A DNA stretch of 64,000 bases from a virus. The stretch spans positions 1-64,000 of the IMG/VR virus record IMGVR_UViG_3300017917_000095; one strand, written 5' to 3'. The first letter of the stretch is position 1; each line of letters opens with the position of its first letter. Shown here piece by piece: positions 5,746-39,400 of the stretch. The position numbers were made by a program, and so were the translations under genes. The notes beneath the pieces are model-generated. The model was not told the DNA's origin and searched no databases. It saw only the letters and a list, made by a program, of their open reading frames with translations.

Positions 5746-6576
5746 ATGGCACTAGACAATAACCCACTAAAGCAGTATTTCCGTCGTCCTTCTGTATACA
5801 TCAAACTACCTAGCGGAGGTAAATACTACCCAGCGGGAATGATAGATATGCCCGAGAACGGAGAGATCCCAATCTATCCAATGACTGCAATCGATGAGAT
5901 TACTACCAAGACACCTGACGCACTGTACAACGGTACTGCAATGGTAGAATTGATGAAAAGCTGTGTTCCTAATATCAAGGATCCTTGGACTATCAACAGC
6001 ATGGACCTCGATGCTATCTTAATCGGCATTAGGGCAGCAGGTGGTGGTAATGACATGGAAATCGAATCAGCATGTCCTAAGTGCAATGATATCGGTAAGT
6101 ATGGATTGAACCTAATCAATATGTTGAGTCAAATGCGTCCCGGTAACTATGACAAAGAGCTAGAACTTAACGATTTGAAGATCAAATTCAGACCTTTGAC
6201 ATACAAAGAGATGAACGAGGCCAGCATAGGACAGCTTGAAATTCAACGTATTTTCTTCTTGTTAGATCAAGAACCCGATGAAGAAGTTCGCAAGAAACGT
6301 GGTCAAGATGCATTGAAACAAGTCACTGAATTGACTATCAAGTTGTTAACTAGTGCCATTCAGTATATTGAGACACCTACTGTACGTGTAGATACCAAAG
6401 ACTTCATTCAGGATTTCTTGAATAACTGCGATAAGAACATCTATGTAGCCGTGCGTGATTACAACGCGGAATTGAAATCCCAGACTGAAATTAAGCCACT
6501 CAAGATCAAATGCGTACATTGCACTCATGAGTATGAACAACCATTCACATTGAATACATCTGATTTTTTCGCATGA
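5746..6576 (+). CDS. gp26: T4 gp26-like baseplate hub / tail assembly chaperone
   Basis: NNPLKQYFRRP..YIKLPSGGKYY N-terminus, PMTAIDE, two CxxC pairs (CPKC, CVHC) and a C-terminal DFF. AAAGGA RBS upstream. Confidence 0.8.
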   Translation: MALDNNPLKQYFRRPSVYIKLPSGGKYYPAGMIDMPENGEIPIYPMTAIDEITTKTPDALYNGTAMVELMKSCVPNIKDPWTINSMDLDAILIGIRAAGGGNDMEIESACPKCNDIGKYGLNLINMLSQMRPGNYDKELELNDLKIKFRPLTYKEMNEASIGQLEIQRIFFLLDQEPDEEVRKKRGQDALKQVTELTIKLLTSAIQYIETPTVRVDTKDFIQDFLNNCDKNIYVAVRDYNAELKSQTEIKPLKIKCVHCTHEYEQPFTLNTSDFFA

Positions 6577-6612
6577 CGCTTCTCCGCCTTGACCCACAAG
6601 GCATACAGAAGC
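6564..6612 (+). other. Candidate programmed -1 ribosomal frameshift signal (slippery T TTT TTC plus a downstream stem-loop)
   Basis: In-frame GAT TTT TTC at the end of gp26, then a 7-nt spacer, then the hairpin GCTTCT-cc-GCCTTG-accca-CAAGGC-atac-AGAAGC (6578-6612). The next ORF is in the -1 frame. Confidence 0.6.
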
Positions 6613-6800
6613 TTATCGAGGGCTATGAAAAAGCCGTCGAACAAATAAGAAAAAACGCCATGACATTGGCGTGGTACATGCGGGGTGGTGCGACATATGA
6701 AGATGTTCTGAATATGTCCGCTACCGAACGTGATTACCTAAATGAATTAGTAGAAAAGAACTTAGAAGTCACAAAGAAATCAGGACTACCATTCTTCTGA
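6573..6800 (+). CDS. Small gp51-like baseplate hub assembly protein (possible frameshift extension of gp26)
   Basis: 75 aa with ATGA overlap to gp26. The LAWYMRGGATYEDVLNMSATER pattern resembles the small protein that follows gp26 in T4-like phages. No Shine-Dalgarno sequence. Confidence 0.65.
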   Translation: MTLLRLDPQGIQKLIEGYEKAVEQIRKNAMTLAWYMRGGATYEDVLNMSATERDYLNELVEKNLEVTKKSGLPFF

Positions 6801-6842
6801 TCTTCTTTCTTTTATCCATAGCTATTCATTTATCTAATTTTT

Positions 6843-7320
6843 AAACTCATCTGTTCTCTTTAGAAGATGTCCTACGGACATCTAAGAATTCGCTATCGCT
6901 CATTCTTACACTGTTTGAGTTTTCTTTAGAGTTTCTTTCATATCAGGCCTATTGAATTAGTATTGCACTTGAAGCCATGGTAGTGCTATTTTAGCACTAC
7001 CACTGGTAAAGGCTGTCTTGCCCGTCATCCATTGTTATCTTTTCCCCGTAGTGTCAGCTATTTGTGCTACATCTACGCTACCGGTTGCTCTGTAAAGTTT
7101 ATGGGACTGTAGTTAGGTCTGTCAATGATCTTTCAATTGACGCCTTCGCAACGCACATCCTATGACTCAAAGATAAAGTCATCATAGGCTTGTTGAAGGT
7201 TCGCTTTGTCGATTGCCTTCTCGGTATATCCAGAAAAATTAATTTCTGCTGCTCCAGAATCTGACGGCACAGCCGAACTGTACAATCTCAAGGAGAGTCG
7301 AGGTACCCCGACCAAACTAG
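6843..7320 (-). ncRNA. Putative large structured non-coding RNA or replication-origin element (family unknown)
   Basis: Only long ORF-free gap in the window, with at least 8 stem-loops (6865-6883, 6884-6907, 6978-7002, 7047-7078, 7121-7141, 7143-7199, 7231-7248, 7297-7312). Two stems contain G-U pairs only on the minus strand. Boundaries are approximate. Confidence 0.55.
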
Positions 7321-7341
7321 TTTAACGATAAAGTGCGTTTC

Positions 7342-7911
7342 TTAAACGCTTGGTAAAATGTTTTTGATTTCGATGTTTTCGATTTGTGACTTGGTGTCTG
7401 TAGAGCCTGTAGAGTATGTCTTAAAGAGGTCTTTGTTGTGATTCCAAAAGTGATCGAACTCAATCATGAGCCAATCACCATATTTTTCCGATGTGTAATA
7501 TAAGAATTGATCGGTTACCCAAGTTAACTTGGACTGAACGCAAACGAACTTACCTTTACGATTGAACTTCATAAAGAGTATGTTTACATCGTCGGTCTCA
7601 GCCACTGCCATAAGTTGATCCAACCAACTATTTAGTTGCTTGCAGTCTCCTGCAAGTACTAAGTGAAAAGGAAAATCAGCGTAAGATTTGCATTCTGCAT
7701 TAAACATCTTGAAGCTTTGTCCTGGTACGATATCGCCCTTGAAAGAACGAATCTGACCCTCATGTAGAAACTCTGTACGCTTTTGGTTCTTGCCACCTAC
7801 GTAGGCGCCTGAACCCGGTGCACGAATGAACGACTCACCGTAGATTTTTGATAGATATTGAGCTACTTCACGCTCAAAACTAGAACCTTTTTGTTTTTGT
7901 GGACTTGGCAT
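7342..7911 (-). CDS. Holliday junction resolvase, Hjc-like PD-(D/E)xK nuclease
   Basis: SPQKQKGSSFEREVA, RAPGSGA, GDI and AECKSY motifs, next to gp46/gp47. Start probably ATG 7911 (MPSPQK). Confidence 0.8.
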   Translation of the reverse strand: MPSPQKQKGSSFEREVAQYLSKIYGESFIRAPGSGAYVGGKNQKRTEFLHEGQIRSFKGDIVPGQSFKMFNAECKSYADFPFHLVLAGDCKQLNSWLDQLMAVAETDDVNILFMKFNRKGKFVCVQSKLTWVTDQFLYYTSEKYGDWLMIEFDHFWNHNKDLFKTYSTGSTDTKSQIENIEIKNILPSV

Positions 7912-7916
7912 ATACA

Positions 7917-7924
7917 TACTTATG
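7917..7924 (-). promoter_or_regulatory. Late promoter variant CATAAGTA, 5 nt before the resolvase ATG
   Basis: The minus strand reads GTCATAAGTATGTATATG. The identical 8-mer precedes the giant gene at 24413. Confidence 0.55.
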
Positions 7925-24427: not shown

Positions 24428-27400
24428 ATGGCATCGAGAATTAGAACATTAAACTTCTTACCAGAAGTATTTCAAACTACAACTAACAGCCAGTTTTTGG
24501 GTGCAACATTAGATCAAATTGTTCAGCAGCCGGAAACTAAACGTATCGAAGGTTACGTTGGTAGTAGATTTGGTTATGGTGTAAACGCTAAGAATTACTA
24601 CGTCACTGAACCTAACAAAACAAGAACCGATTATCAATTAGATCCAGGTGTTGTCTTCACTAAGACAAACGAATCAGTCGCAAAAGACTTTATCAGCTAT
24701 CCTGGTATGTTAGATGCATTGAATCTTGAAGGTGGGTTGACACAAGATAACAACCGTCTATATAACAGTCAGTTCTATTCTTGGGATTCGTTCACCGACC
24801 TAGACAAGATTATCAACTTCAACCAATACTACTGGATCCCACAAGGTCCTGCTAGTGTTGTTGTTTCTAGTGAAACTGTGTTCTCGTCTAACGAATATAA
24901 CGTATACGATCTTCCTAGTGGTTACAATATTGTTCCTGTAACCTCTTCTGAAGGCCAAGGCACAACCAACCCAACATTAACATTGTTGCGCGGTGGTACA
25001 TATACATTTGCAGTAAACCAAGATACTCAATTCTGGATTCAAGGTCGTCCTGGCGTTACTGGTTATGATCCAACTCAACCAAACGTACAGACACGTGATG
25101 TATTAGGTGTTGACAATAACGGAACAACGCAAGGTATTGTGACATTTACTGTTCCTCCTAAAGATGCACAAGACGACTACAACTTTCCGGGTAACAACTT
25201 AGTGGATGTTGTTAGTACACTTCCTTTTGCACAAGTCAATGGTGCAAGATTAGCAGACTTAGGTGGCATCGATGGTGTAACATCATTAGATGGATTAACC
25301 GTAATGTTCTACAATACAGGTATTCCAAATGAAGTTGGATATGTATCTAACTTCTTCGACTATACTCCCTTCGATTATAACGATGATCTAACTCCTCTAC
25401 AGTCTATTACTGTTACTGCAACCACAGCATCAACAGATGCTATCACTTGCAGCAGTACCGCAAACTTAGCAGTAGGAAATGCTATTATTTTCAATGGTAA
25501 CCCATTCGGTGGGTTAGCAGCTTATTCTACAACTCTACCAAACACAATTTATTACGTAGAGTCTATCATTAACTCTACTCAGTTCACTGTTTCTACAACA
25601 GTCGGTGGCTCTGTATATCCATTGTCCAATGGTTCTGGTACAATGACAGCAATCTCTAACCAAGGTCTATATGAGCAAGGTTACTACACAAACGTAAATG
25701 AAAATTTCTATACTATTCAGTACCTAGGTGATCCTTCTGATCCGGTTATACGTTTGAAGCAAGCTAACGAGATTCCTACTAACCAAAAGATTACTGCAAC
25801 TTACGGTACACAGTGGGTAGCTAGGGCATTCTACAAGAATCCGTCTGGTGTTGTACTATTAATCCCTTATCTAAGCGCACAACTTGATACTTTATACTAC
25901 CAAGACGGTACATTTGCAGATAAGGTGGGTGTAATTAGACTAATCGAAAGTAACGTACTAAACACCCTAGATGTTGAGACAGACATTTTAGGTAAAGCGC
26001 AATATACTGCAACTAATGGAGTAGTATTCACTAATGGATTGAAAGTTACTTTCCAAGGTGATGTGTTCCCTGTAAAATATCTATCAGGTGAATATTATGT
26101 TGAAGGTGTAGGTACTGCAATTGAGCTACTACCAGTAGAAGATTTTGTTGCTCCTGAAAGTTTCACAGCTAGCACTTATGTTCCATGGGATACAATTGGA
26201 TGGGATGCTGCTAACTGGGAAGGTGATTCATATGTTCCAGTGAACCCTGAGTACATTACTATCGCTAGAAATTCTATGGATAAGAATGCATGGTCACGTA
26301 GTAATCGCTGGTTCCACATTGACGTTATCAACGCAACTGCGACATACAATAACAATCCTGATTTATTGACGTTATACACCAACGAAAACTTTAAGGCTAA
26401 GCGTCCTATCATCGAATTCTATCCTAATTTGAAACTGTTCAACTCAGGTTCAGAAGGAAAGGCTCCTGTGGATTTTATTGACGTAAGAACAACTGATGCA
26501 TTCAGCTTGGTCGCAGGTAAACAAAACTACTATCCTGACGTTGAAGTATATACTGGGTATAGTGCAACAATCACATCAACTAACTACACACCTATTCGTG
26601 CCTTTACAAGCGCAAGTGCATCAACCGACATATTTACTACTACGACCGGTACTACTGGTTTCCAAGTAAATGACTTGATCGTATTTGACGGCATCACACT
26701 AGATCCTACCATTCAAGACGGCAAATCATATTATATTGCTGAGGTAGTTTCTGGTACTCAGTTTAAAATTTCTGCTACTAAAGGTGGAAGTGTGATCGGT
26801 CCTGATAGCAACCTAGGTGCAGGCGGCAACATCATTTGGTCTCCTTTGAGTACTACTGTAACCGTTGCAGCGGATGAAATCACTGGAACATTTACTGTAG
26901 GTCAGTATGTTAAAGATTCAACTAACGCACTTCCACGCAATGCACAGATTGCCTCAATAACCGGCACAACAAATTTAACGTTGACAGTTGAATGGGACGA
27001 AGGTTCAAAATATTTCGCACAACAGACAAATGCATCTATCATTGGTACTGATACTACAAACGACAACTATGCTTTGTTCGATGGAGCCACTGTTATCTTT
27101 ACTGCCGACACAGATGCTAACGTAAGAAACAAAGTGTATGTTTCACGTTTCTCCGCTATCACTGGATCATCAACACCGATCATTACATTGACAGAAGCTA
27201 AAGACGGTGAGGTTTATCCAAATCAACAAACAGTTGCATTGCGCGGATATTTCAATAATGGTAATGAGTTCTGGTTCGATGGAGCAGAATGGATTGAGGG
27301 TCAACAAAAGACAACATTGAATCAACCACCGTTGTTTGATATTTTTGACGAAAACCAAGTTAGCTTGGGAGACCCACTAGTCTATGTGGGAACATCGTTC

Positions 27401-30400
27401 ACTGGATGTAAGTTATTCAGTTATGGAATCGGTACAGGATTAGATGATTCTGTTTTGGGATTCCCTATCAGATATAGTTCAGTAGACAACGTAGGCGATA
27501 TCAGCTTTGATGTTTCGTTGAACTCTGATACCTTTGACTATGTTAAGGGCACAGAACCAATTACACAAAATGTAAACACTGGGTACGTTTATCAGTATCT
27601 AACTAGAGACACATACAAACGTCAAATCGGTTGGCAGACTGCTCTGTCTCCTAGTGTACAGTATCAATTGTTCTCGTTTGATTTTGATCCGTTGAACCCT
27701 GCCACATCATATGTATGTGATATTGCTAAATCTTCTAGTACCAGTACTAACTGGCCTACAATCGATGTGTTTATTAACAACGTAGCGTTACAGCACAGCG
27801 AGTATACTGTTACCGTCGGACCAAATTCAACTACTGTTGTATTGAACGCAAATCCTGTAACAGAAACTGTAGTGCAGATTGCATTGTTGAGCAATCAAGT
27901 AAGCCCAACTGCGTACTATTCTATTCCTGTTAATTTGAATAACAACCCATTGAATGCTGACATTACAGTAGCTAACGTCGGTGACATTCGTGGTCAGTAT
28001 CAGAGCGCATTCTACAACAATCCAAACACTGTTGGAAAAGCATTCGGTCCTAACAACTATCGTGACTTGGGTAACATGGTTCCATGGGGCGACAAGATCA
28101 TTCAGAATAGCGCAAGCTTGGTATTGCCTGGAGCATTCCTACGCAAACAAGAACACAACCTATTCAACGCATTGTTGTTCAATGACAGAGAATACATAAA
28201 GTTCAAAAATTTGTTGGTCTACACTGTACAAAATAGTGACTATTCACAACGATTCAATCCATCGGTCATGCTTGACGATGCATTAGATCAGATCACTGCA
28301 TCGAAAGATAACAGTCAGCCATTCTTCTGGTCTGATATGTTACCAAGCAAGTCAGCATACATTTCTAATACCTATTCATTTGCAAATAGTTTAGATGTTT
28401 CTATCTATCCATTGTCTAGAGTCTATGATTTTAAGACAGCAAACTACTACGGTGTTCTTGTTTACTTGACTAGAACAGTAAACGGTGTTACCTCAACACA
28501 ACAGTTGATTAAGAATCAAGATTATAATGTAAGCGAAACATCACCTTCATTGACAGTTACAACTGACCTGTTACCAGGCGACGTTGTTACTATCAAAGAG
28601 TACAATCAGACATACGGATCATATGTTCCTAATACTCCTACTAAGTTAGGTCTATATCCTGCATATACTCCTGAAGTCGTATTAGATAGCGATTACAATG
28701 AACCTACATACTTCATCAAAGGTCACGATGGTTCATACAACAAGTTATATGGTGATTATGATCCTACAACTGGTTTGCTAGTAGACTTCAGAGACCAAGT
28801 TCTGTTAGAATTTGAACTACGTGTTTATAACAACTTGAAGATTAGCTCAGAAATACCTATCAAAGAATATGAAGTATTACCTGGCTTCTTCAGAGAAACT
28901 GACTATTCATATGCTGACTGGTTATACATCTACTCTCCTAACTTCTTAAGTTGGGTTGGTCAGAATAGACTAAACTATAAGACACAGTATTTCAATAGTG
29001 CAAACAAGTTCACTTACAACTATTCACAAAGTGGAAATGCTGTAGACAAAGCACCGATCAGTCAAGGTTATTGGAGAGGTATGTATCAGTATTTCTACGA
29101 TACCACAACTCCAAATACTACACCATGGGAAATGTTGGGCTTCACTCAAATGCCTACATGGTGGACAAATCGTTATGGTCCTGCTCCATACACTAGCGAT
29201 AACTTAGTGTTGTGGAACGATCTTGCAGAAGGTATTAACTGGAATAACGGTGATCCGTTCGTTATACCTGAAGCAGTACGTGATGGATTATTAGACATTA
29301 TCCCGGTTGATACTGCGGGTAACTTGTTAGCTCCGATCGATTCAATCGTTGGCAGTTACAATCAGAAATTATTCCAACGTGATTGGAAAGTAGGTGACGC
29401 TGGCCCGGTAGAATTTAGTTATCGCCGTAGTTCTAGTTACCCATTCGACTTGATGAAGATTATGGCTTTGATGAAGCCGGCTAAATTCTTTAACTTAGGT
29501 GTTGACGTAGACCACTACAAGTACAATGCTGAATTTAACCAATACTTGGTTAACAACAGAAGCCACTTGAAAATGAGTGACATTGATGTATATGGTTCTG
29601 GTACCGCAGTGACAAGCTATATTAACTGGGTCGTTGACTATGAAAAACAAGTAGGCATTGATGCTACAACAAACATCACTGAAATGCTAAACAACATGGA
29701 TGTACGTTTGGTATATCGTTTGGCTGGCTTCAGTGATAAGACCATGTTGAAGTTCTATGTAGAAAAGTCAACAGCAAATAGTAACAATAGCTCATTGTTG
29801 ATTCCTGACGAAAGCTATCAGGTTCTTTTGTACGATAATCAACCATTCAACAGAATCAGCTATTCAGGTGTTGTCGTGCAGATAGCACCTAACGGTGGAT
29901 ACACTGTGTTTGGTAACTCACAAACTGTCGCATACTTCAAGACATTGAAACCTAAGTTTGGTGGAAACTATGCATCAATTGACGTAGAGAAGCTATCCGT
30001 TAAGATTACACCGGACCACTTCGATCAAATTCAACTAGTACCTTACAATACTACGTTCTATACTGTACAAGAAGTTGCACAGTTCTTGGCTGACTACGGT
30101 GCCTATCTAGTTAGTTTGGGTATGCAGTTCCAAGACCTAGAGAACGAATTAGAAATCAACTGGAATCAGATGATTGCTGAGTTCATGTACTGGGCACAAA
30201 CTGGTTGGGCTGCCGGCAGCATCGTCACATTGAATCCTGCTGCAAAGAGCTTGGTCATTAACAAAGACAGTAATATTGTACAGCCACTAACCATTCAACA
30301 ATCTAACTTTGTGTTGAATCAAAACTTGTATCCTATTCAATTGAATGACATGTCTATTGTTCGTCAGGATACTGAGTTCAGAGTTACTGCATTGAACCAA

Positions 30401-33400
30401 GGTGATGTAATGTCTTATGGTCAATTCAACCTAAGTAACTTTGAACATGGTATTGTTTTTGATAACGAAACATTGTTCGGTGATGTGCTTTACAACTTGA
30501 CTACAGGTCTGCGTCAGAACAGAATCTCATTGAGAGGTACCAAATCCGCTAACTGGAATGGTACTGTCAATGCAGCAGGTTTCATCTACAACCAAGACAA
30601 CGTTAAGCCATGGTCTAGGACTGCAAAATATACCAAAGGTGAAATCGTAACATACAAGAACAAGTATTGGGTAGCTACTAAAATAATCCAAGCGAGTGAA
30701 ACCTTTAATGAAGCAGACTGGAAGAGAACAAACTATGATGAAATTCAGAAAGGTTTGTTACCTAACGCAAGTACACGTAGCTACGAAAGCACATTGTACT
30801 ATGATTCAACACAAGCTAACCTAGAGAATGATGCTGATCTATTAAGCTATAGCTTGATTGGATACCGTCCACGTGATTATCTAGCACTTGCAGACTTGAC
30901 AGACATTACACAAGTAAACGTTTACAAGAACATGATTAAGGAAAAGGGTACATTGAATGCAGCGAGTGCATTCAAAGGTGCAAACTTACCTCAAGGTGGT
31001 ATTGATTATGATGTTTATGAAAACTGGGCAATTAAAGCAGGTGAGTTTGGTGGCGTATTAAACAACAACTTCATTGAATTCAAAGTCAATGAAAAATACA
31101 TGACTGGTAATCCAGCAATTGTTGGATTGACCGATGGCATATACAACGTAGGTGTACAACAAGAAGTACCGTTGTATTCATTGTTCAATTACGGTCGTCC
31201 TATAACATCAGTGGATGCATTGCCTACTACAAGTACCAATGAACCTTCAACTGTATACCCTGATGCAGGTTATGTAAACTTCAACGATGTTAAGATGTCC
31301 GCATTCTACTATGCTCAGATGCCTTTTGCAATCAATAAGAGTGGTGTAGTAGTTCCTATCGAGAACTTCTATGTACGTGACTATGTTTGGTTGGCTAATT
31401 ACCTAGAAACATGGCAAGTATATACTACTGCGGCAATGGGTCAAGTAACTAATGCAAAGAACAACTTGAACGACACTGTTACTATTACGTTCAAGACTCC
31501 GCACAATCTAACACAGTATCAACCATTTGCAATCGTAAACTTTGACGTTGCAATTGACGGGTACTATCTAGCAACTATTGTTATCGACCAATACAGAGTT
31601 TTAGTATCTAAGACTCTTGATTCCGGTATCAAGAACATAACAGGTGAAGGTATTGCGTTGAAATTTACCTCTCAACGTGTAGCGACACCTAATGAAATTA
31701 ACACATTACCATTGACAGATGCCGAGTTCAGAAAGAATACAGTATGGGTCGATACAGCATATGATGGCTCATGGGGTGTCTATAGAAAGTCTATAAGCTA
31801 TCAACTTGAAAACCAGCTAACAAAACAATCCAGTGAATCATTTGGTAGCGCAGTAGCAATCAATGACCAAGTTGGATATTTGGTTGGTGACGCTGATGCA
31901 GGTCAAGTATACCGTTATACTTACAATGACCTAGCACAAGAGTATCAAATAGCACAGACACTAATTGGCGGCACAAGCTTCGGCAGCACAATCACTTATG
32001 CAGGTGATTTGTACGCTATCGCTGAAACAACAGGTTCTACTCGTAGTGTAAAATTATACCAACTACAACAGACTATTACATCCGATGATTTGATATTGAT
32101 TCAAACATTGACCTATCCATCAGGTGCAACTACTTGGGGAACATCAATTGCTATATCAGGTGACCAAGATTGGATGTACATATCAGACATTGACCAAAAT
32201 ACTGTTCACGTATATGAAAGACTAAACGTACCGACTACTGCTGGTTACTTTGTCGTAGGACAAACTTACACAATTCAAACTGTGGGTACTACTGACTTCG
32301 TTGCAGTAGGCGCAACATCAAATGATGTTGGTGTCTCATTCATTGCTACTGGTGTGGGTTCCGGAACAGGTGTTGCTAACAAGACAACATATACAAACGT
32401 CACATCTATAGACGGTGATGCACTAGGGTTGACAACTAGCGGTGATAACTTTGGTTACTCCGTTGCTACTGATTATGACGGTGACGAAATCATCATCGGT
32501 ACTCCTAATCAAAACAACGGTGCTATTGATAACTGGGGTTACACTTATGTGTTCCAACGAATCTATCAAAATGTTGAGATTAACTACAACACAATATCTC
32601 CTGCATTCCAAACTTTACAGTTAGCATGGACTCCTACTACTGTATCTAAGACAGTAACTTCTACAAATGCGACTGGTAACAAAGTAACATTGAACAGTGT
32701 TTCTGGAATTACAGTTAATGATCCTATCATCTTTACAGGCACATTAACTGGTACTGATATTGCATCTAACAAGGTATACTATGTTGCAAGTATCAACGTA
32801 CCTAGCACTTATATTACTCTAAAAACATCTAGAGAAAGTACATCAACAGTGACAGTTGCAACCAATGCATCTGTCAGTGCAACCGCTACGGCACAGACAG
32901 AACCATTGATCGTTTCTAAGAACGGTACTGTGGTAACTGACAATAATTATGCAGTGATTGACGACTCAATGATTTATACTGGATCATTGAACGCCGGCGA
33001 TATTGTCAATATAAGCGGACATGAGATTGTATTACTACAAACATTGACAACCGAAGAAGCACCACAGACTGGTTCTCAGTTTGGTATCTCAGTAGACACA
33101 AACAACAATGCAAGTGAAATTATTGTTGGTGCCCCATTCCAGTTAGATTCTCAGATGCAAGAAGGTACTGTGTATCGTTATACAGACTCTGGTGCTAAGT
33201 TTGGTATGTATATGGGAACAAGTGATTGTAACGTCACTACCACTCGCAAGATACTAATTAATGGTTTCTTGACATTCATCCCTGCAGGTGATGCAGAAGA
33301 TGTTGCGAACTCTATCAAGAGTGCTAATATAACTAACGTAACTGCCGCAGCAGTTGACGGTAAGTTGGCTATCTATCTATTGAATACTGAAATTTCCCCT

Positions 33401-36400
33401 CATGACGAGAAGTTATTCTTGGGTATAGTAGACACTGCAACATTATCTGAATTAGGTCTAGAAGTGTTTGTTAAGACACAAGAAATTCTCTGCCCTCACA
33501 AAGTAGGTCCTACTCAGTTTGGTTCGGTAGTCAAGTTCAATCAATACGGTAGCTTTGTAGCTAGCGCGCCTACTGGAACTCGCTACTCAGCAACTACCTT
33601 CGACTTCTCAGATGATGAAAACCAAGATGATGATACTGTATTTGACAACAACGCAACACAGTGGGTAGACGAAACACCAAACTTTGGTGCTGTCTACATG
33701 TTTGACTACATCAGCGAATACAATGAAAGCTTGGCAGCTCCTGGCACATATGTGTATGCACAATCTGTCAACTCACCTAACTTGGTATACTCTGCATTCA
33801 ACTCATATGACCAAGCAACTGATGTAACATACAACAATCAACCTCGTTACGGTACTGCATTGGACTTCAATGACTTTAGCGTAGCTATCGGTACACCTAA
33901 CGACACTGGCGCAACCAGTGGAAGTACGTATGCTGGTTCAGTTACTGCATATCGCAACGCCACTAGAGTTCAAGACTGGGCAATCTATCGTCATTCTGCA
34001 CCGGTTGTAGATATCAACAAAATCTACAACATTCAGTTGTTCAGTGCTGAAACAAACAACACACTAATCAACATGGATTATATTGATCCATTACAAGGTA
34101 AGATCCTAGGTGCAGCCCGCGAGAACATTGACGTTGTTTCAAACGTTGACCCAGCAACCTACAACAATGCACCTACAGTAACAGGTGGCATTACATGGGG
34201 AGCAGCACAATTAGGCACCGTGTGGTTGAACACAAAAGGTATGCGTTATGTAAACTATCACCAGAATGATGATATTTCATACAACAGTCAATACTGGGGA
34301 ACACTGTTCCCAGGTAGCGATGTTGCAGTATACAGCTGGATAGCAAGCAATGTATTGCCTGCTGAGTATAGAGGCCCCGGCACACCATTTGATGTCAACT
34401 CTTATTCAGTACAGTATGTAATCAATGCAGCTGGTTCCTTGGTACCTACATATTATTTCTGGGCAAGAAATACTAACATGATTTTCTCTGACAATGGTAA
34501 GACATTAGCAGACTCAATCATTGCTTCTTATATTGAGAGTCCAAAAGCATCAGGTGTAAGCTACTTTACCCCATTGTTGCCTAGCGTATACGGTCTATAT
34601 AACAGCGGCGAGTACATCAACGCAAACGATAGTGTATTGCATATTGGCTTTGCTACTGGATCAAATGATGACCCTGCACACTCACAATTCAACTTGATTC
34701 GTGATGGGTATGCTAGCGACTTCTTACCGGGCGTACCGTTAGTTTCCGGTGAATCACCTGATAGTTTGTACGACAGACTACTAGATAGTCTTTGCGGTGT
34801 TGACGAATTGGGCTCAGTTGTACCTAACCCATACTTACCAAAAGCAGTTCAAGTTGGTATTCTAGCAAGACCTCGTCAGAGCTTCTTTTTGAATAGATTC
34901 TTGGCATTGAAGAACTATCTACAATATGCTAATACTGTGTTGGCACAATATCCTATTACAGAAATTAGATATTCTTCTTTCCTAACATCAAGCGGTGAGT
35001 TCTATGACACTGCTAATTACTGGCAGTTCATTAACTGGTGGGCTCCTGGTTACAACGACAACACTAAGGCTTCCCTACAAGTTCCTCTATACGCTGATTT
35101 GTCTACCCTATCTGTAGTTACTGGTACAATTGTCACTGTAGCTACAAACGGTAACGGTAAGTCAGAAACTTATGTCTACGAAGCAGACGGTACATGGAAG
35201 CGTATTGGCTTAGAGAATGGTACAATCGAATTCAAATCATCACTATGGGATTACTCATCAGTGAGACTTGGTTACGGTGACAACTTCTTTGACACTGACA
35301 CATATGATGTGTATCCAAGTGAAGAAACTCGCAAGATTGTTCGTGCATTGAACGAGCAGATTTATACTGATGATCTAATGATCTATAGAAACAAGAGTTT
35401 GGTTCTATTGTTCGAATACATTCAAGCTGAAAGCACAGAGAATCAGAACTATCTACCATGGTTGAACAAGACATCCTTCATCGATGTGGCTCATACTATT
35501 CGTGAACTACGTCCTATCGAGGTGTTCCAAAGTGACAACCAAGCATTCTTAGAAGGTTACTTGAATGAAGTAAAACCATATCACGTAGTCATCAAAGAAT
35601 TCTTGTTCAAGTACACCGGCGAAGAAGTCTTTGCAGGTGACATAACTGACTTTGATTTGCCAGCAAAATACAATAGCTCAATTGGACAATTTGTAACTCC
35701 TCAGTTAGTTTACTCTAACTCTAACGGAATCAATCAATTCACACCAGATGATCCCATCTGGCAAGAACCTGAATATTCACAATGGTTCAACAACCACGGT
35801 GTATCACTGACTGGTCAAGATAATGTACAAATTACTACATTAGCATCTTACATTTCATTGAATGCAAACGCATTTGCAGTTGACAACGCACAGGGTTTAC
35901 CAATCAACGGAGTTCTTCAAATCGGAACAGAACAGATTGGTTATGCATCAGTGGATCGTTCATTGAATGTAGTTTCGGGGTTAACTAGAGGTGTAAATGG
36001 TACTACCGTTTCTACTCACATTCCGGGTGACTTGATTTATATTAACTTGCCGGCTGTCTTAGTACTAGACGGCGGCCGCGGATATACTGAGCCTCCTAAG
36101 GTAACAGCATATATCGATACTACGATTTATCCTGCACCAACTAGAGCAGCAGTGTTAACAGCAGTAATGAACTTGGATAGCGTATTACGTGTTGACGTAG
36201 TAGATCCGGGCCAAGGCTACGCTGTATTACCTAAGATCATTATTGATTCTGCCGTTGTAGTTCCTTTTGACGATACTAGTGTTAGCACATTGACAAATAC
36301 AGTTCAATTGTATGCACCATTGCTACAAACTGGTGACTTGATTCAATACAAAGTTGGAGCAGGTAGCACATCAGTCGGTGGTTTAGAAGATGGTCAGTGG

Positions 36401-39400
36401 TACTACATAAACGTATTAGAAACAGTACCTTCAGTGACTGTAGGTCTGTATGATAACTATGCAGATGCTATGAACAATCATGATAGATTGTCATTGTTTT
36501 CAACTGGATCAGGTTCGTTCACATTCAACGTAGGCGCAAGAGCAAGTGCTATTACAACAGCAGTTCCTGTTAGAGAAAACAACATCACTCTCCGATTCGA
36601 TAGAACATCATATGGATCTGATTTGATCGAATGGGAAGCAGGACGTTACTACGGTGCATTCTATGCAGGTACATACCACAACAGCAGCCAAGTCTCTAGT
36701 TCTTCTATCACATTAGAAAGCACACAGCCACCAGTAGCTTCTATCTTAGCTAGTGCTCAAGGTGTAGCATTTGAAATCACGGATGTTCGTAATGAGCGTA
36801 TCGTTGAATACAGTTCGTTCATTCGCCACGTAGGTAGCACAATTGCATCTAGTGATGCAGTTAGATTGACACTGCAAGACGATGGCTCAGGTAACCCTAA
36901 CGCATCGGGTGGTACTATCGGTTTCTACATTGGCATGCCGATCAAGTTCGTCGGAGCAGTAGGTGGGTCTGGTATCGTAAATGAACAAGTTTACTATGTA
37001 AACAGCATACTAAACCAAACTGATTTCACACTGTCGTCTGATCCTAGCGGTTCACCGATTGTTGCATTGTCAGATTGGACAATCAGCGTTGCTGGTTTAG
37101 ATTGCTATGTGGGACAAGTTTCTGATGCAGCAGTTATCACAGTTGACTATCCTGGAATCCTGAATATCACTGCGACTGAGGCTGTAACAAACAATATCAC
37201 TGTGCCGTTGCACTTATCTGGTACAGGTGGCACAGCAGGTTTCTACATTAACTTGCCGATATTCTTCACTGGTACTGACTCGTCATTACCGCAGAACGGC
37301 GTGTTTGGTGGGATCATTGAAAACCAAGTTTACTACGTAACTACTGTGGTCGATAATCAGACATTCACTATGTCTGAGAACAAAGATCCTGTATGGTTCA
37401 ATGTATTGTCTACATCTGCGTCTACTGATGCAATCACAATCGACGGAGATACTCAGAAGTTATCAGTCAATGAACCTATCATCTTCAACACTATGGTGGT
37501 TGCAGGTACAGAGACAACAAGCTTTGGTGGCATAACATCTGGAACAACATACTATGTTTCAGCTATCTTGTCTACTACAGCATTCCAGATATCTGCAACA
37601 GTTAATGGTGCAGTGCTAGCATTGTCCGATGTTGCTGCGGCATCAAATACTTCTGCACTATTGACAAGTCAGAAAGACACTGTAAAGTTGACTACAGCAA
37701 CAGGTAACACTATGGTTGTGAACGTCAGCTTGCCAGTAAGTCCTGGTCAAGTCAACGGACAAAAGTTCACACTATACGAAACATCTGGTCAATACCCAGG
37801 ATCAACTGGTACAGACACATCATTGATTACTAGAGGTGTCGCTGCGTTGATCGGTACAGTAAATGTAAGTGCAGGTAGCTTTGTAATAGGTGAGACTTAT
37901 ACTATTGCGTTTGTAGGTACAACAAACTTCACTGCAATTGGCGCATCTGCGAATACAATAGGTGTTACATTTACTGCTACAGGCGCAGGCACTGGCACAG
38001 GTACAGCTAACTTAGAAGTCAATCAGGTTGTATTGACTAACTTCAATCCAGGTGACACTGTTGCACTATGGTTGACTAACATCTACAATAACTTACCATT
38101 AGAAATTTCTACAACATACGGTTCTAGTTTCTTAACAGCAGGTACTCCTTATTATGTTATTGACAACGGTATTATTGAAGTAGAAGTGACATATACATCT
38201 TCAAGCGACAATTCATTGAAGTGCGAATCTACTGCATCTCTATTCGAAGATATGCCAATCACATTCTCCGGTGCAGGTGTAGGTGGTGTGCAGATTGATG
38301 TTGAGTACTGGGTTAAGTCTATTATTGACGACCAGCGCTTTACTATCACAAACACACCAGGTGGACTAGAAATAACAGTCACTACCGCTAGCGGATTGAT
38401 GACAGGTACAGGCTTGCCGTATGTCAAGGTATCTACTTCTGTAGGTGGCTCAGTTACCAATCCAGGATCTACACAGCAGACAGCTACATTTACGATTCCA
38501 TCGTCAACTATCACTGTATCTGCGGCACCTGACACTGGCACCAAAGTATTCTTTAGAACAACTGGTTCATTACCAGGTGGTGTGTCAGAGAACACAGAAT
38601 ATTTTGTAACCAAGACTGGTGCAACCACTTTCGAAATCTCATTGACTTCAGGTGGTTCAGCTATTACTACTTCAGGTACACAGTCTGGTACACATACTAT
38701 GATTATCGCAACAGAAGCTACAATGGATCAAACTCCATCTGCTACTGTTCCTGAATTTGATGTAAGCTATGTATTAGGTGGATACCGTGTTCTAATAACT
38801 GAACCTAGTTCAGGTTATGCAGTTGACAACGTAATCACTATTCCAGGTACTGAAATGGGTGGAACTACACCCGAGAATGACCTAACGTTGACTGTCAATG
38901 CAATCAGTAGCACCGGTGCAATTACTAGTGTTATCTGTGATGGTACTGTACCAGGTGCATCACAACAATACTACTTAAAGGTAATTTCTCCTACTGAGTT
39001 TGCATTGTATGAGAATCAATTGATGACTGTTCCTGCTAGTGGATTGGGTATCCCATTCGTTGGCACCACACAGAGCACCGTCACTGGTTTAACTTCAGGT
39101 ACAAATGCATTAACCTTAGCAGATGCATCTGGTTTCGAGTTGAACGATTTGGTTGTATTTACGGGTGATATGACACCTACTATCGGTGCAATCACTGCGG
39201 GTCAAGGTTACTTTATCACTTCTATCACTGGTAATGATATCACTATATCAGAAGATCCAGATGGCACTGATGTAACTATTACAACTACCATTTCGGCAAA
39301 CTTCACGATAGCCAAGTCAGGTTCATTTGCATTGCTACCTGAACCATTCATCTTTAATCAGAGTCTTGTTAAGTATAACAACCGTGTTTACGTCTGTATC

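What the first reader, a model, noticed from the sequence alone, without database searches (positions are those of the whole stretch)
6801..7341. About 480-nt highly structured non-coding element, probably a minus-strand RNA, downstream of the Holliday junction resolvase
Seen: this is the only long ORF-free stretch in 64 kb, and it is tiled with stems. They include GTCGGG-gtac-CTCGAC (7312-7297), CAGAAA/TTTCTG (7231-7248), a nested CCTTC..CCTATGA/TCATAGG..GAAGG domain (7143-7199), GTCAAT/ATTGAC (7121-7141), a bulged CGTAG..CTACG stem (7047-7078), a perfect 11-bp TGGTAGTGCTA/TAGCACTACCA stem (6978-7002) and AGATGTCC/GGACATCT (6865-6883). Stems 7297-7312 and 7162-7182 have G-U pairs on the minus strand but A-C mismatches on the plus strand, which points to a minus-strand transcript continuing from the resolvase gene. 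I do not recognise it as tRNA, tmRNA, RNase P or an intron. Inference: a new large phage ncRNA, or a structured replication primer comparable to ColE1 RNA II or T4 R-loop origins.
Basis: partly seen in the sequence, partly recalled or inferred. Interest (0 to 1): 0.85.

Follow-up and report, generated by a model that had tools for sequence, protein, structure and literature searches.

The report
New knotted RNA of jumbo phages
The only long gene-free gap in this fragment of an uncultured giant phage encodes a real, intricately folded non-coding RNA of about 450 bases, kept in one copy directly behind a DNA-junction-cutting nuclease gene in well over a hundred related phages; it matches no catalogued RNA family and its job is still unproven.

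Summary
Confirmed. Window 6865-7316, minus strand, encodes a conserved structured RNA. No ORF is conserved. Rfam, tRNA and tmRNA searches find nothing.

The gap is 66-89 % identical in DNA across about 140 IMG/VR loci, where the flanking 75-aa protein is only 43-93 % identical.

Covariation is very strong. In the central domain 96.9 % of cells pair, against 30-39 % in slid controls, and 24 of 34 pairs show compensatory changes. In the 3' domain 98.1 % pair. Two pseudoknots covary. G-U outnumbers A-C 192 to 43, which fixes the minus strand.

The core is a four-way junction (P4-P7). The RNA and an Hjc-like PD-(D/E)xK resolvase gene each occur once, side by side, in three complete 350-367 kb genomes.

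New here:
- A covarying hairpin lies inside the nuclease coding region.
- A diverged "type B" RNA fills the same slot in relatives.
- Its CCCA/UGGG helix replaces CUCC/GGAG, so the anti-Shine-Dalgarno look is only a helix.

I found no support for a replication origin or primer. Function is unknown. My best guess, about 30 %, is a protein-binding partner or regulator of the adjacent resolvase.

This scan already found the same family on other genomes, with the same verdict.

The parts
7388..7398 (-). P0: small hairpin GAC-ACCAA-GUC inside the 3' end of the nuclease coding region, 55-85 nt upstream of P1
   Evidence: In relatives the stem changes in a compensatory way (GAC/GUC, GGC/GCC, GAG/CUC, GACAC/GUGUC), and these changes alter the encoded amino acids (sequence). 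The protein tail it encodes is predicted to be disordered.
7312..7326 (-). A/U-rich box (GUUAAACUAGUUUGG) just 5' of P1. It may be a -10-like promoter element or an RNase cleavage site, so the 5' end of the RNA is uncertain.
   Evidence: An AAAWWUUNG-type box sits 2-5 nt before P1 in all type A loci. It is not the phage late promoter ATAAATA. A terminator-like hairpin at 7335-7349 overlaps the stop codon in this lineage only.
7297..7312 (-). P1 hairpin (GGUCGG-GUAC-CUCGAC)
   Evidence: The hairpin is anchored just before the UCCUUGAG motif in 98 sequences. Mean stem is 6.2 bp against 3.4 bp in shuffles, with 35 different 5' arms.
7252..7295 (-). P2 (CUCC 7292-7295 with GGAG 7252-7255), enclosing the invariant UUGAG and hairpin P2a/b (7263-7287)
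   Evidence: P2 is invariant within type A. It becomes CCCA/UGGG, CACC/GGUG or UCCA/UGGA in type B relatives, which is covariation across the two types. P2a/b pairs covary.
7231..7248 (-). P3 hairpin (CAGAAA/UUUCUG)
   Evidence: All six pairs show compensatory changes (columns 145-150/249-254). There are 58 different 5' arms.
7079..7226 (-). Central domain: a four-way junction of P4, P5, P6 and P7, plus P8 and the conserved strand J8/7. Helices: P4 7222-7226/7079-7083; P5 7216-7220/7195-7199; P6 7155-7193; P7 7147-7152/7084-7089; P8 7115-7145. J8/7 is ACUACAGUCCCAUAAACUUUACAG at 7090-7114.
   Evidence: Model R1 scores 148.8 bits here. On alignment A3, 96.9 % of cells pair and 24 of 34 pairs have changes on both sides. 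The slid controls give 30-39 %.
7172..7176 (-). PK1, 5' strand: the P6 loop UUAUC, which pairs with GAUAA at 7035-7039
   Evidence: Five loop-to-strand pairs each form standard pairs in at least 99 % of 99 sequences. Example types are UA/CG, GC/AU and CG/UA.
7103..7106 (-). PK2, 5' strand: J8/7 UCCC, which pairs with GGGA at 7043-7046
   Evidence: Column pair 149/243 reads UA 61, CG 18, GC 7, AU 7, UG 3. The neighbouring C-G pairs are kept. Lineage variants seen by eye include ACC/GGU, CCU/AGG, GCC/GGC and UCUC/GAGA.
7035..7046 (-). Strand 3' of P9 (GGGAAAAGAUAA) that carries the 3' halves of PK2 and PK1
7047..7077 (-). P9, a bulged hairpin
   Evidence: Nine of 11 pairs have changes on both sides and 97.4 % of cells pair.
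6978..7002 (-). P10, a nearly invariant 10-11 bp hairpin (UGGUAGUGCU/AGCACUACCA)
   Evidence: 99 % of cells pair. There are few but real compensatory changes (UA/AU at the tip; GUAGAGCC/GGCUCUAC in L067) and 11 G-U cells.
6960..6977 (-). Conserved single-stranded tail (U)GGCUUCAAG(C)GGCAAU after P10
   Evidence: It is nearly invariant. 1-nt indels shift its frame, so it is not a small ORF.
6908..6959 (-). A-rich hypervariable linker (20-110 nt in relatives)
6884..6907 (-). H1 hairpin: AAGAAU-GA-GC-GAUA-GC-GA-AUUCUU, with tandem G.A pairs and a GNRA-type loop
   Evidence: It is conserved in types A and B. The inner pair reads GC 35 / AU 22. The outer pair has 12 U-G cells on this strand.
6865..6883 (-). 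H2: an 8-bp hairpin with a triloop. It is the probable 3' end and a terminator shared with the convergent baseplate operon.
   Evidence: Six of 7 pairs have changes on both sides. In the shortest gaps it abuts the stop codon of the 75-aa gene.
7342..7917 (-). Upstream gene: an Hjc-like PD-(D/E)xK nuclease (191 aa), on the same strand as the RNA
   Evidence: It matches Pfam PDDEXK_15 at 2.4e-25 and PHROG 244. The AF2 model's best PDB matches are archaeal Hjc Holliday-junction resolvases (probability 0.98-1.0, E about 1e-3, TM 0.5 on the target).

Best explanation
**Shown.** Window about 6865-7316, minus strand, is a single-copy gene for a compactly folded non-coding RNA of about 450 nt.
- It belongs to 'type A' of a wider family carried by uncultured T4-like jumbo phages of about 350 kb.
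- Its parts are a 5' domain (P1-P3), a four-way-junction core (P4/P5/P6/P7 with P8), P9 and P10.
- Two pseudoknots tie the strand after P9 to the P6 loop and to the J8/7 strand.
- An A-rich linker and two terminal hairpins (H1, H2) follow.

**Inferred, about 60 %.** The RNA is made as the 3' extension of the gp47-gp46-resolvase operon transcript and ends at H2. A covarying hairpin (P0) already lies inside the nuclease reading frame, and no promoter is conserved across the family. An own promoter at the A/U box is the alternative.

**Inferred, about 30 %, my best single guess for function.** The folded RNA works as a protein-binding RNA tied to the neighbouring Hjc-like Holliday-junction resolvase.
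- Its rigid four-way junction would mimic the enzyme's branched-DNA substrate.
- That could hold the toxic junction cutter in check, or feed back on its expression, until late in infection.
- T4 gp32 and gp43 bind operators in their own mRNAs in a comparable way (this comparison is from my own knowledge).
For: **Real RNA**
- No ORF is conserved. Rfam, tRNA and tmRNA searches find nothing.
- The gap is 66-89 % identical in DNA where the flanking proteins are 43-93 % identical.
- Covariation statistics are strong in both modelled domains.
- The pseudoknots covary.
- G-U outnumbers A-C 192 to 43.

**Link to the nuclease**
- The order nuclease, RNA, then the convergent 75-aa gene and hub holds in every one of about 140 type A loci. 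It also holds in the 39 of 56 type B loci where the 75-aa gene was found. In 35 of these the gap is under 700 nt; 4 carry inserts of up to 1.8 kb.
- RNA and nuclease share the strand. P1 starts within a few to about 45 nt of the stop codon.
- Each occurs once, side by side, in five long contigs, three of them complete genomes.
- Hairpin P0 covaries inside the coding region.
- The C-terminal tail of the protein is disordered. It is kept better as DNA than as protein.
- The nuclease models as Hjc-like.
- The core is a four-helix junction with linkers of 1, 1, 2 and 0 nt.
- The RNA core differs between nuclease clades, type A against type B. That fits a co-evolving phage partner better than a universal host ligand.
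Against: - No expression data could be obtained, so neither the transcript nor its ends are shown.
- Synteny is conserved on both sides, so adjacency to the nuclease may be plain inheritance.
- Nuclease homologues in the cultured jumbo phages SCTP-2, PA5oct and Phosso work without a detectable copy.
- Four-way junctions are common in large RNAs.
- I know of no precedent for an RNA that regulates a junction resolvase.
- In this window's own lineage a terminator-like hairpin (7335-7349) and a -10-like box lie between the gene and P1. That would favour an independent transcript.
- I did not establish that type B keeps the same four-way junction.
Confidence: 0.3

Rival explanations
1. An independent, trans-acting ornate RNA whose function has nothing to do with the nuclease. 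Examples would be a self-assembling RNA-only particle like GOLLD/ROOL, a scaffold for another phage or host protein, or a new ribozyme.
For: - It has size, pseudoknots, invariant single-stranded stretches and a possible base triple (columns 3/174/191) on the scale of ribozymes and ornate RNAs.
- GOLLD, ROOL and OLE turned out to be homo-oligomeric RNA assemblies (PMC12286853, found).
- Nuclease homologues elsewhere lack the RNA.
- An A/U box and, in this lineage, a terminator-like hairpin precede P1.
Against: - The central core is not conserved between type A and type B. That is unusual for a catalytic core or a ligand pocket.
- No known ribozyme or ornate-RNA model matches.
- The invariant position and the hairpin inside the coding region would then be coincidental.
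Confidence: 0.3
2. A purely cis-acting 3' untranslated element of the recombination operon. It would act as a stabiliser against 3' exonucleases, or as a terminator/insulator between the convergent early/middle operon and the late baseplate operon.
For: - It sits exactly where two convergent transcription units meet.
- H1 and H2 are kept in both RNA types and abut the opposing stop codon.
- No promoter is conserved across the types.
Against: - A terminator or stabiliser needs one or two hairpins. It does not need about 350 nt with a four-way junction, two pseudoknots and dozens of invariant unpaired bases kept across well over a hundred phages.
- H2 lacks a clear U-run.
Confidence: 0.15
3. A replication origin or primer RNA of the ColE1 RNA II or T4 oriF R-loop type.
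For: - The element is non-coding, structured and next to recombination and replication genes.
- T4 oriF lies beside the baseplate genes 25/26/51 (from my own knowledge).
- Earlier notes of this scan proposed RNA-primed origins for other jumbo-phage RNAs. Those notes are unchecked.
Against: - The flanking genes converge on the element instead of diverging.
- Cumulative GC skew has no turning point at 7 kb; its minimum is near 13-15 kb.
- There are no iterons or tandem repeats.
- The covariation includes G-U pairs and loop-strand pseudoknots. That means a free folded RNA, not an RNA-DNA hybrid.
- It is single-copy.
Confidence: 0.05
4. A guide-type RNA for the adjacent nuclease. It would be analogous to the omega/reRNA of TnpB, which overlaps the 3' end of its nuclease gene, with the hypervariable A-rich linker serving as a guide.
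For: - The RNA starts inside or just behind the nuclease reading frame.
- A conserved scaffold is followed by a hypervariable stretch.
Against: - The neighbour is a 191-aa Hjc-like PD-(D/E)xK protein, not a RuvC/HNH enzyme.
- The variable stretch is A-rich, varies in length and is followed by conserved hairpins.
- No transposon ends are present, and there is one copy per genome.
- Junction resolvases recognise structure, not sequence.
Confidence: 0.04

Closest known systems
GOLLD and ROOL (and OLE): large ornate bacterial and phage ncRNAs (Rfam families; cryo-EM in PMC12286853)
   Same: - They are large (several hundred nt), multi-helix, pseudoknotted non-coding RNAs.
- They are often carried by phages or prophages.
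- They were discovered by comparative genomics and their biochemical function is still unknown.
   Different: - There is no sequence or structure match: 0 hits at Rfam gathering scores and nothing for these families at E up to 10.
- This RNA is smaller, with a core of about 350 nt.
- It is fixed at one syntenic site behind a resolvase gene instead of lying near tRNAs.
- Oligomerisation has not been tested.
Autoregulatory mRNA operators of phage T4 (gene 32 pseudoknot, gene 43 hairpin; from my own knowledge) and RNA antitoxins of type III toxin-antitoxin systems (ToxI)
   Same: This is the mechanism I favour: a nucleic-acid-binding or nucleic-acid-cutting protein is held or regulated by a structured RNA. 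That RNA is encoded on the same transcript, next to the protein's gene.
   Different: - Those RNAs are short (20-40 nt units). They lie 5' of the gene, or are tandem repeats.
- Here there are no repeats, the RNA lies 3' of the gene and it is ten times larger.
- Binding has not been tested.
RNase P RNA, group I introns and tmRNA (classic RNAs of 300-400 nt with long-range pseudoknots)
   Same: Size and architectural complexity are similar. A superficial ACAG...CCGG motif recalls CR-V of RNase P.
   Different: - No Rfam or ARAGORN hit.
- The helix topology differs: P7 is a local helix enclosing only P8 and J8/7, unlike P4 of RNase P.
- It is not inserted in a gene, and it has no tRNA-like domain or tag ORF.
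ColE1 RNA II pre-primer and the T4 oriF/oriG R-loop transcripts
   Same: These are structured non-coding transcripts in replicons. T4 oriF lies near baseplate genes.
   Different: No origin signatures were found here. The fold is a closed, pseudoknotted globule.
Unnamed candidates in 'Identification of over ten thousand candidate structured RNAs in viruses and phages' (PMC10690425)
   Same: That survey mined IMG/VR intergenic regions, the same collection that holds this family. It may therefore list this RNA as a numbered candidate.
   Different: I could not check this, because no supplementary files are held. The main text does not mention a jumbo-phage, nuclease-linked or baseplate-linked RNA.

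Membership tests
Any Rfam 15 family (including GOLLD, ROOL, OLE, raiA, RNase P, group I/II introns, 6S, riboswitches) | Scores at or above the family's gathering threshold with its covariance model | tested here: not met
   There are 0 matches in the whole 64-kb window. At E up to 10 on 6700-7450 only six chance-level snoRNA/sRNA rows of 11-18 bits appear.
tRNA / tmRNA | Cloverleaf or tRNA-like domain with a tag reading frame | tested here: not met
   ARAGORN finds 0 genes in the window.
Protein-coding gene or small ORF | A reading frame kept open in relatives | tested here: not met
   The longest open frames differ in strand and frame between 63 homologous gaps. The AUG after P10 is followed by 1-nt indels.
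Structured ncRNA (generic) | Base pairs kept through compensatory changes, well above controls | tested here: met
   - A3: 96.9 % of cells pair against 30-39 % when slid, with 457 double-change cells.
- A5: 98.1 % pair against 23-55 %.
- The PK1 and PK2 pairs form standard pairs in at least 98 % of sequences.
RNA-primed replication origin (ColE1 RNA II, T4 oriF type) | A promoter followed by an unwinding element or persistent hybrid, a strand-skew switch and divergent gene orientation | tested here: not met
   The genes are convergent. There is no skew turning point at 7 kb and there are no repeats. Origin activity itself cannot be tested here.
TnpB/IscB omega-RNA or CRISPR-type guide RNA | An adjacent RuvC/HNH effector, transposon ends or a repeat array | tested here: not met
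   The neighbour is PDDEXK_15 and Hjc-like. No repeats were found.
Retron / DRT-type template RNA | A reverse transcriptase encoded with it | tested here: not met
   No RVT_1 match in five long contigs that carry the RNA, three of them complete genomes.
Type III toxin-antitoxin RNA | Tandem repeats of a short antitoxin unit upstream of the toxin gene | tested here: not met
   There are no tandem repeats, and the RNA is downstream of the gene.
The new jumbo-phage RNA family itself (type A, as defined here by models R1 and R2) | - Full-length match to the P4-P8 and P9-P10 models.
- PK1 and PK2 complementarity.
- Position between the Hjc-like nuclease and the 75-aa gene plus hub genes. | tested here: met
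   The window scores 148.8 bits (R1) and 120.5 bits (R2). Its PK strands are complementary (UUAUC/GAUAA, UCCC/GGGA). Synteny is shown.

The most novel reading that the evidence does not exclude
The RNA is a rigid four-way-junction decoy, an RNA mimic of a Holliday junction. The phage co-transcribes it with its Hjc-like resolvase to bind and restrain that enzyme, or to autoregulate it, until branched DNA must be cleared for packaging. This would be the first RNA regulator of a junction-resolving nuclease, and a new kind of RNA antitoxin-like control.
Probability: 0.15. Interest if true: 0.9.

Novelty: categorically new. Interest (0 to 1): 0.8.

Why it matters
- Large, highly conserved RNAs with ribozyme-grade architecture are rare, and each class found so far has opened new biology (RNase P, group I/II introns, tmRNA, OLE, GOLLD/ROOL).
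- This one is a fixed, single-copy feature of a large clade of uncultured jumbo phages of about 350 kb. It has a well-supported fold: a four-way junction plus two pseudoknots.
- It has a diverged sister type at the same genomic slot, which gives natural variation for working out what matters.
- It has an obvious protein candidate to test, because the resolvase gene is next door.
- The RNA can be transcribed in vitro for probing, cryo-EM and binding assays without a cultured host.

Tried and rejected
- **Rfam, tRNA/tmRNA, promoter/terminator scans.** Rfam at gathering and permissive thresholds, and tRNA/tmRNA searches, found nothing. The promoter/terminator scan gave one internal promoter-like site and one terminator-like hairpin at the stop codon, neither conserved family-wide.
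- **Coding potential.** Rejected. The AUG-GCU-UCA frame after P10 is rejected because 1-nt indels shift it.
- **DNA similarity to deposited phages.** None.
- **Cultured relatives SCTP-2, PA5oct, Phosso.**
  - The nuclease is present, but R1, R2 and nhmmer find no RNA.
  - The four published PA5oct ncRNAs lie elsewhere in that genome (PMC7318152).
- **Bacterial and archaeal genomes.** A strict pattern search of 185,579 species genomes gave 0 matches.
- **Anti-Shine-Dalgarno mimic (CCUCCUU).** Rejected.
  - The motif pairs with GGAG.
  - The pair is replaced by CCCA/UGGG, CACC/GGUG or UCCA/UGGA in type B.
  - No complementary site occurs in the window apart from the element itself, and the phage hardly uses strong SD sites.
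- **Alternative-fold ideas.** Two were tried: CACUAC in J8/7 against the P10 arm, and the tail GGCAA against the P7 strand. Covariation does not support them, because the partners change without the 'alternative' changing.
- **Pairing of CAUGGC with the invariant CCAUGG.** Rejected, since one side varies freely.
- **Origin model.** No skew signal and no repeats.
- **Reverse-transcriptase partner.** None in complete genomes.
- **Covariance model for the 5' domain.** Not built, because MAFFT put P1 and P3 out of register. I used per-sequence hairpin counts instead.
- **Type B fold.** Only partly worked out.
Full report
**What is there.**
- The + strand ORF 6573-6800 encodes a 75-aa protein and follows a T4-type baseplate hub gene at 5746-6576.
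- The - strand ORF 7342-7917 converges on it, leaving 541 bases without a credible ORF.
- The - strand gene is a PDDEXK_15 nuclease (Pfam 2.4e-25). PHROGs calls it 'RusA-like resolvase'.
- An AlphaFold2 model of it (pLDDT 77, C-terminal 18 residues disordered) finds archaeal Hjc Holliday-junction resolvases as its best PDB matches. Probability is 0.98-1.0, but E is only about 1e-3 and TM about 0.5 on the target.
- Upstream on the same strand lie the gp46/SbcC-like and gp47/SbcD-like genes.
- The record is an 85-kb fragment of an uncultured phage. Relatives with the same locus reach 350-367 kb at 100 % CheckV completeness.

**Is it more than chance?**
- Both strands fold 3.5 SD better than dinucleotide shuffles. 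That shows hairpins but not the strand.
- Rfam 15 gives nothing at gathering scores for the whole window, and only chance-level rows at E up to 10. ARAGORN finds no tRNA or tmRNA.

**Conservation.**
- Using the nuclease as bait, 80 IMG/VR loci were fetched out of 285 relatives. A DNA pattern from the element brought 62 more true copies.
- Every locus with enough flank has the same order: nuclease, gap, then the convergent 75-aa gene and hub.
- The gap is 66-89 % identical in DNA over about 350 nt, while the 75-aa protein is only 43-93 % identical.
- No reading frame is conserved.

**Fold.** Coordinates are in the parts list. RNA sense is the window's minus strand.
- RNAalifold on 58 distinct gaps predicted 62 pairs, 43 of them with compensatory double changes.
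- I built two covariance models and aligned 100 loci to each:
  - R1 covers the central domain (window 7078-7228).
  - R2 covers the 3' domain (6952-7086).
- Central domain (34 pairs):
  - 96.9 % of 3094 cells form standard pairs, against 30-39 % when partners are slid by 1-3 columns.
  - 24 pairs carry changes on both sides (457 cells).
  - 0 of 500 shuffles reach any of the five measures.
- 3' domain (21 pairs): 98.1 % pair against 23-55 % slid, with 342 double-change cells.
- Core:
  - It is a four-way junction of P4, P5, P6 and P7, with linkers of 1, 1, 2 and 0 nt.
  - P7 encloses hairpin P8 and a 25-nt, nearly invariant strand (ACUACAGUCCCAUAAACUUUACAG).
- Joining the two alignments exposed two pseudoknots:
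  - PK1: the P6 loop pairs with AGACAA after P9. All five pairs form standard pairs in at least 99 % of sequences, switching between UA/CG, GC/AU and CG/UA.
  - PK2: UCCC of J8/7 pairs with GGGA just before that. The key column pair reads UA 61, CG 18, GC 7, AU 7.
- The A of CGGUA in P4 also covaries perfectly with a U in J8/7 (columns 174/191: UA 64, UG 14, AU 12, CG 9). It covaries less well with its P4 partner. This hints at a base triple or a small extra helix.
- 5' hairpins:
  - P1 is always present but has 35 different 5' arms; P3 has 58.
  - Mean stems are 6.2 and 7.5 bp, against 3.4 and 5.2 bp in shuffles.
- H1 and H2 at the 3' end also covary.
- Over 64 supported pairs there are 192 G-U cells against 43 A-C cells.

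- Six of the seven are conserved helices, and one (7121-7141) is the lineage-specific tip of P8.
- The proposed outer CCTTC/GAAGG pairing (7143-7147 with 7195-7199) is not the conserved one. The CCUUC strand covaries with the upstream GAAGG of P5.

**Ends and expression (inferred).**
- P1 begins a few to about 45 nt after the nuclease stop codon.
- Inside the coding region, 55-85 nt upstream, a small hairpin (window 7388-7398, GAC-ACCAA-GUC) changes to GGC/GCC, GAG/CUC or GACAC/GUGUC in relatives. These changes alter the encoded amino acids, so selection acts on the RNA.
- tblastn even aligns this tail past the real stop codons of two loci.
- The phage's late promoter motif ATAAATA sits before late genes (5684, 13450, 20532, 21024, 44021, 44808) but not before the RNA.
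- An A/U box (AAAWWUUNG) precedes P1 in type A but not in type B.
- I therefore favour read-through from the operon, possibly with processing, ending at H2. In the shortest gaps H2 abuts the opposing stop codon.
- In this window's own lineage a terminator-like hairpin overlaps the stop codon, so an independent transcript is possible.
- Public RNA data could not be consulted.

**Distribution.**
- There is one RNA and one PDDEXK_15 gene, side by side, in each of five long contigs. Three of these are complete genomes.
- None is detectable in the nearest cultured jumbo phages (SCTP-2, PA5oct, Phosso), whose nuclease is about 40 % identical. The four ncRNAs published for PA5oct lie at other loci (PMC7318152).
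- A strict pattern search of 185,579 prokaryote genomes found none.

**A sister type.**
- Nuclease relatives 50-67 % identical to the window's were fetched with a bait of that clade (562 in IMG/VR).
- In the 39 of 56 such loci where the 75-aa gene could be found, the synteny is the same. In 35 of them the gap is about 330-600 nt.
- Model R1 does not match there, but the gaps hold a related RNA:
  - The type A profile matches their 5' domain (E down to 1.7e-10).
  - P1, UUGAG, the P7 strands (CCGUUG ... ACAGGNCAACCG) and H1/H2 recur.
  - The middle is different.
- P2 reads CCCA/UGGG, CACC/GGUG or UCCA/UGGA there, instead of CUCC/GGAG.
  - This proves P2 by covariation.
  - It removes the idea that CCUCCUU is an anti-Shine-Dalgarno mimic.
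  - The complement of that motif occurs nowhere else in the window, and strong SD sites are rare in this phage.
- Type B also carries two direct repeats (ACUC-AGAUGAW and AUCU-AGAUGAW) flanking a G+C hairpin.
  - They change in lock-step: AGAUGAU, GGAUGAA, AGAUAAA, GUCGGAA.
  - This is as expected for two sites read by one co-evolving dimeric partner.

**What it is not.**

| Candidate | Result |
|---|---|
| Replication origin | Genes converge; cumulative GC skew has no turning point at 7 kb; no repeats |
| Retron or DRT-type template | No reverse transcriptase in complete genomes |
| Guide RNA of a TnpB/IscB/Cas effector | The neighbour is Hjc-like |
| Coding sequence | No conserved frame |

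**What it most likely does.** All of this is inference.
- The evidence fits a free, rigid, protein-binding RNA rather than a hybridising or cis-only element:
  - the ribozyme-grade fold;
  - the many invariant unpaired bases;
  - a core that diverges between phage clades.
- The only specific lead is the neighbour. The RNA is on the same strand as the resolvase, probably on the same transcript, in one-to-one copy number, and starts inside its reading frame. It also presents a four-helix junction to an enzyme whose substrate is a four-helix DNA junction.
- I therefore rank 'partner or regulator of the Hjc-like resolvase (junction mimic)' first at about 30 %.
- The rivals are:
  - an unrelated trans-acting ornate RNA or ribozyme, about 30 %;
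  - a cis-acting 3' element, about 15 %;
  - an origin or primer, about 5 %;
  - a guide RNA, about 4 %.
- The remainder is unassigned.
- Against the resolvase link: synteny is conserved on both sides, the nuclease exists without the RNA in cultured relatives, and nothing has been measured.

**Novelty.**
- No Rfam family, no deposited phage annotation and no paper I could search describes it.
- The IMG/VR-wide catalogue of candidate structured RNAs (PMC10690425) may list it anonymously.
- The same family was already found and followed up several times in this scan on other genomes, with the same conclusion: a new doubly knotted RNA whose job is unknown.
  - the hairpin in the coding region;
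  - the extra 174/191 covariation;
  - the Hjc-like model of the neighbour;
  - the one-to-one copy number in complete genomes;
  - the absence of a reverse transcriptase;
  - the link to type B, with covariation of P2.

Noticed in passing
L211-L266 (for example L252:2483-2945, L257:2492-2940), downstream of the nuclease: A diverged 'type B' RNA occupies the same slot in relatives. It shares P1, UUGAG, P2, the P7 strands and H1/H2 with type A, but its middle is different. It also carries two direct repeats (ACUC-AGAUGAW ... AUCU-AGAUGAW) that change in lock-step between phages. Two subgroups exist, of 13 and 18 distinct sequences.
   Followed up: partly
window 7388-7398 (-): A small hairpin inside the nuclease coding region has compensatory changes that alter the protein sequence. 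It is followed by a G-poor stretch up to the stop codon. The encoded C-terminal tail is predicted to be disordered.
   Followed up: partly
window 6816-6836 (-): A conserved box, AGAUAAAUGAAUAG(U/C)UA(C/U)GG, lies between H2 and the stop codon of the 75-aa gene in roughly half of the type A loci. It resembles the late promoter (ATAAATA) but differs in the last base (ATAAATG), and it would point antisense into the baseplate genes.
   Followed up: no
L035:5026-5772, L041:5049-5792, L046:5053-5787 (all -); L050:1938-2456; L075:5050-5661: Five relatives carry an extra gene between the RNA and the 75-aa gene, on the strand of the baseplate operon. The 244-248 aa version matches DUF6071 (7e-10). The 172-aa and 203-aa versions match nothing in Pfam. 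The RNA itself is intact in these loci.
   Followed up: partly
window 5684, 13440/13450, 20532, 21024, 44021/44025, 44808: The T4-type late promoter core ATAAATA is depleted overall (9 copies against 17 expected). Most copies sit 20-170 nt upstream of structural-gene starts. Strong Shine-Dalgarno sites are rare (AAGGAG occurs 7 times in 64 kb), which hints at a host that uses SD pairing weakly.
   Followed up: partly
window 24428-44017 (+): A single open reading frame of 6529 codons lies in the structural region.
   Followed up: no
alignments A3+A5, joined columns 268 and 352 (type A loci): Two unpaired positions change together to the same base (G/G in 56 sequences, U/U in 15). One is the last G of GACGGG. 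The other is the G of AAAGCGG in the 3' tail. This is unexplained; a base triple or a shared partner is possible.
   Followed up: no
L084:1987-3000 (Sinorhizobium phage Phosso) and L083:803-2991 (PA5oct): In these cultured jumbo phages the nuclease gene is preceded by 1.0-2.2 kb with no ORFs or only tiny annotated ones. Rfam, R1 and R2 find nothing there.
   Followed up: partly
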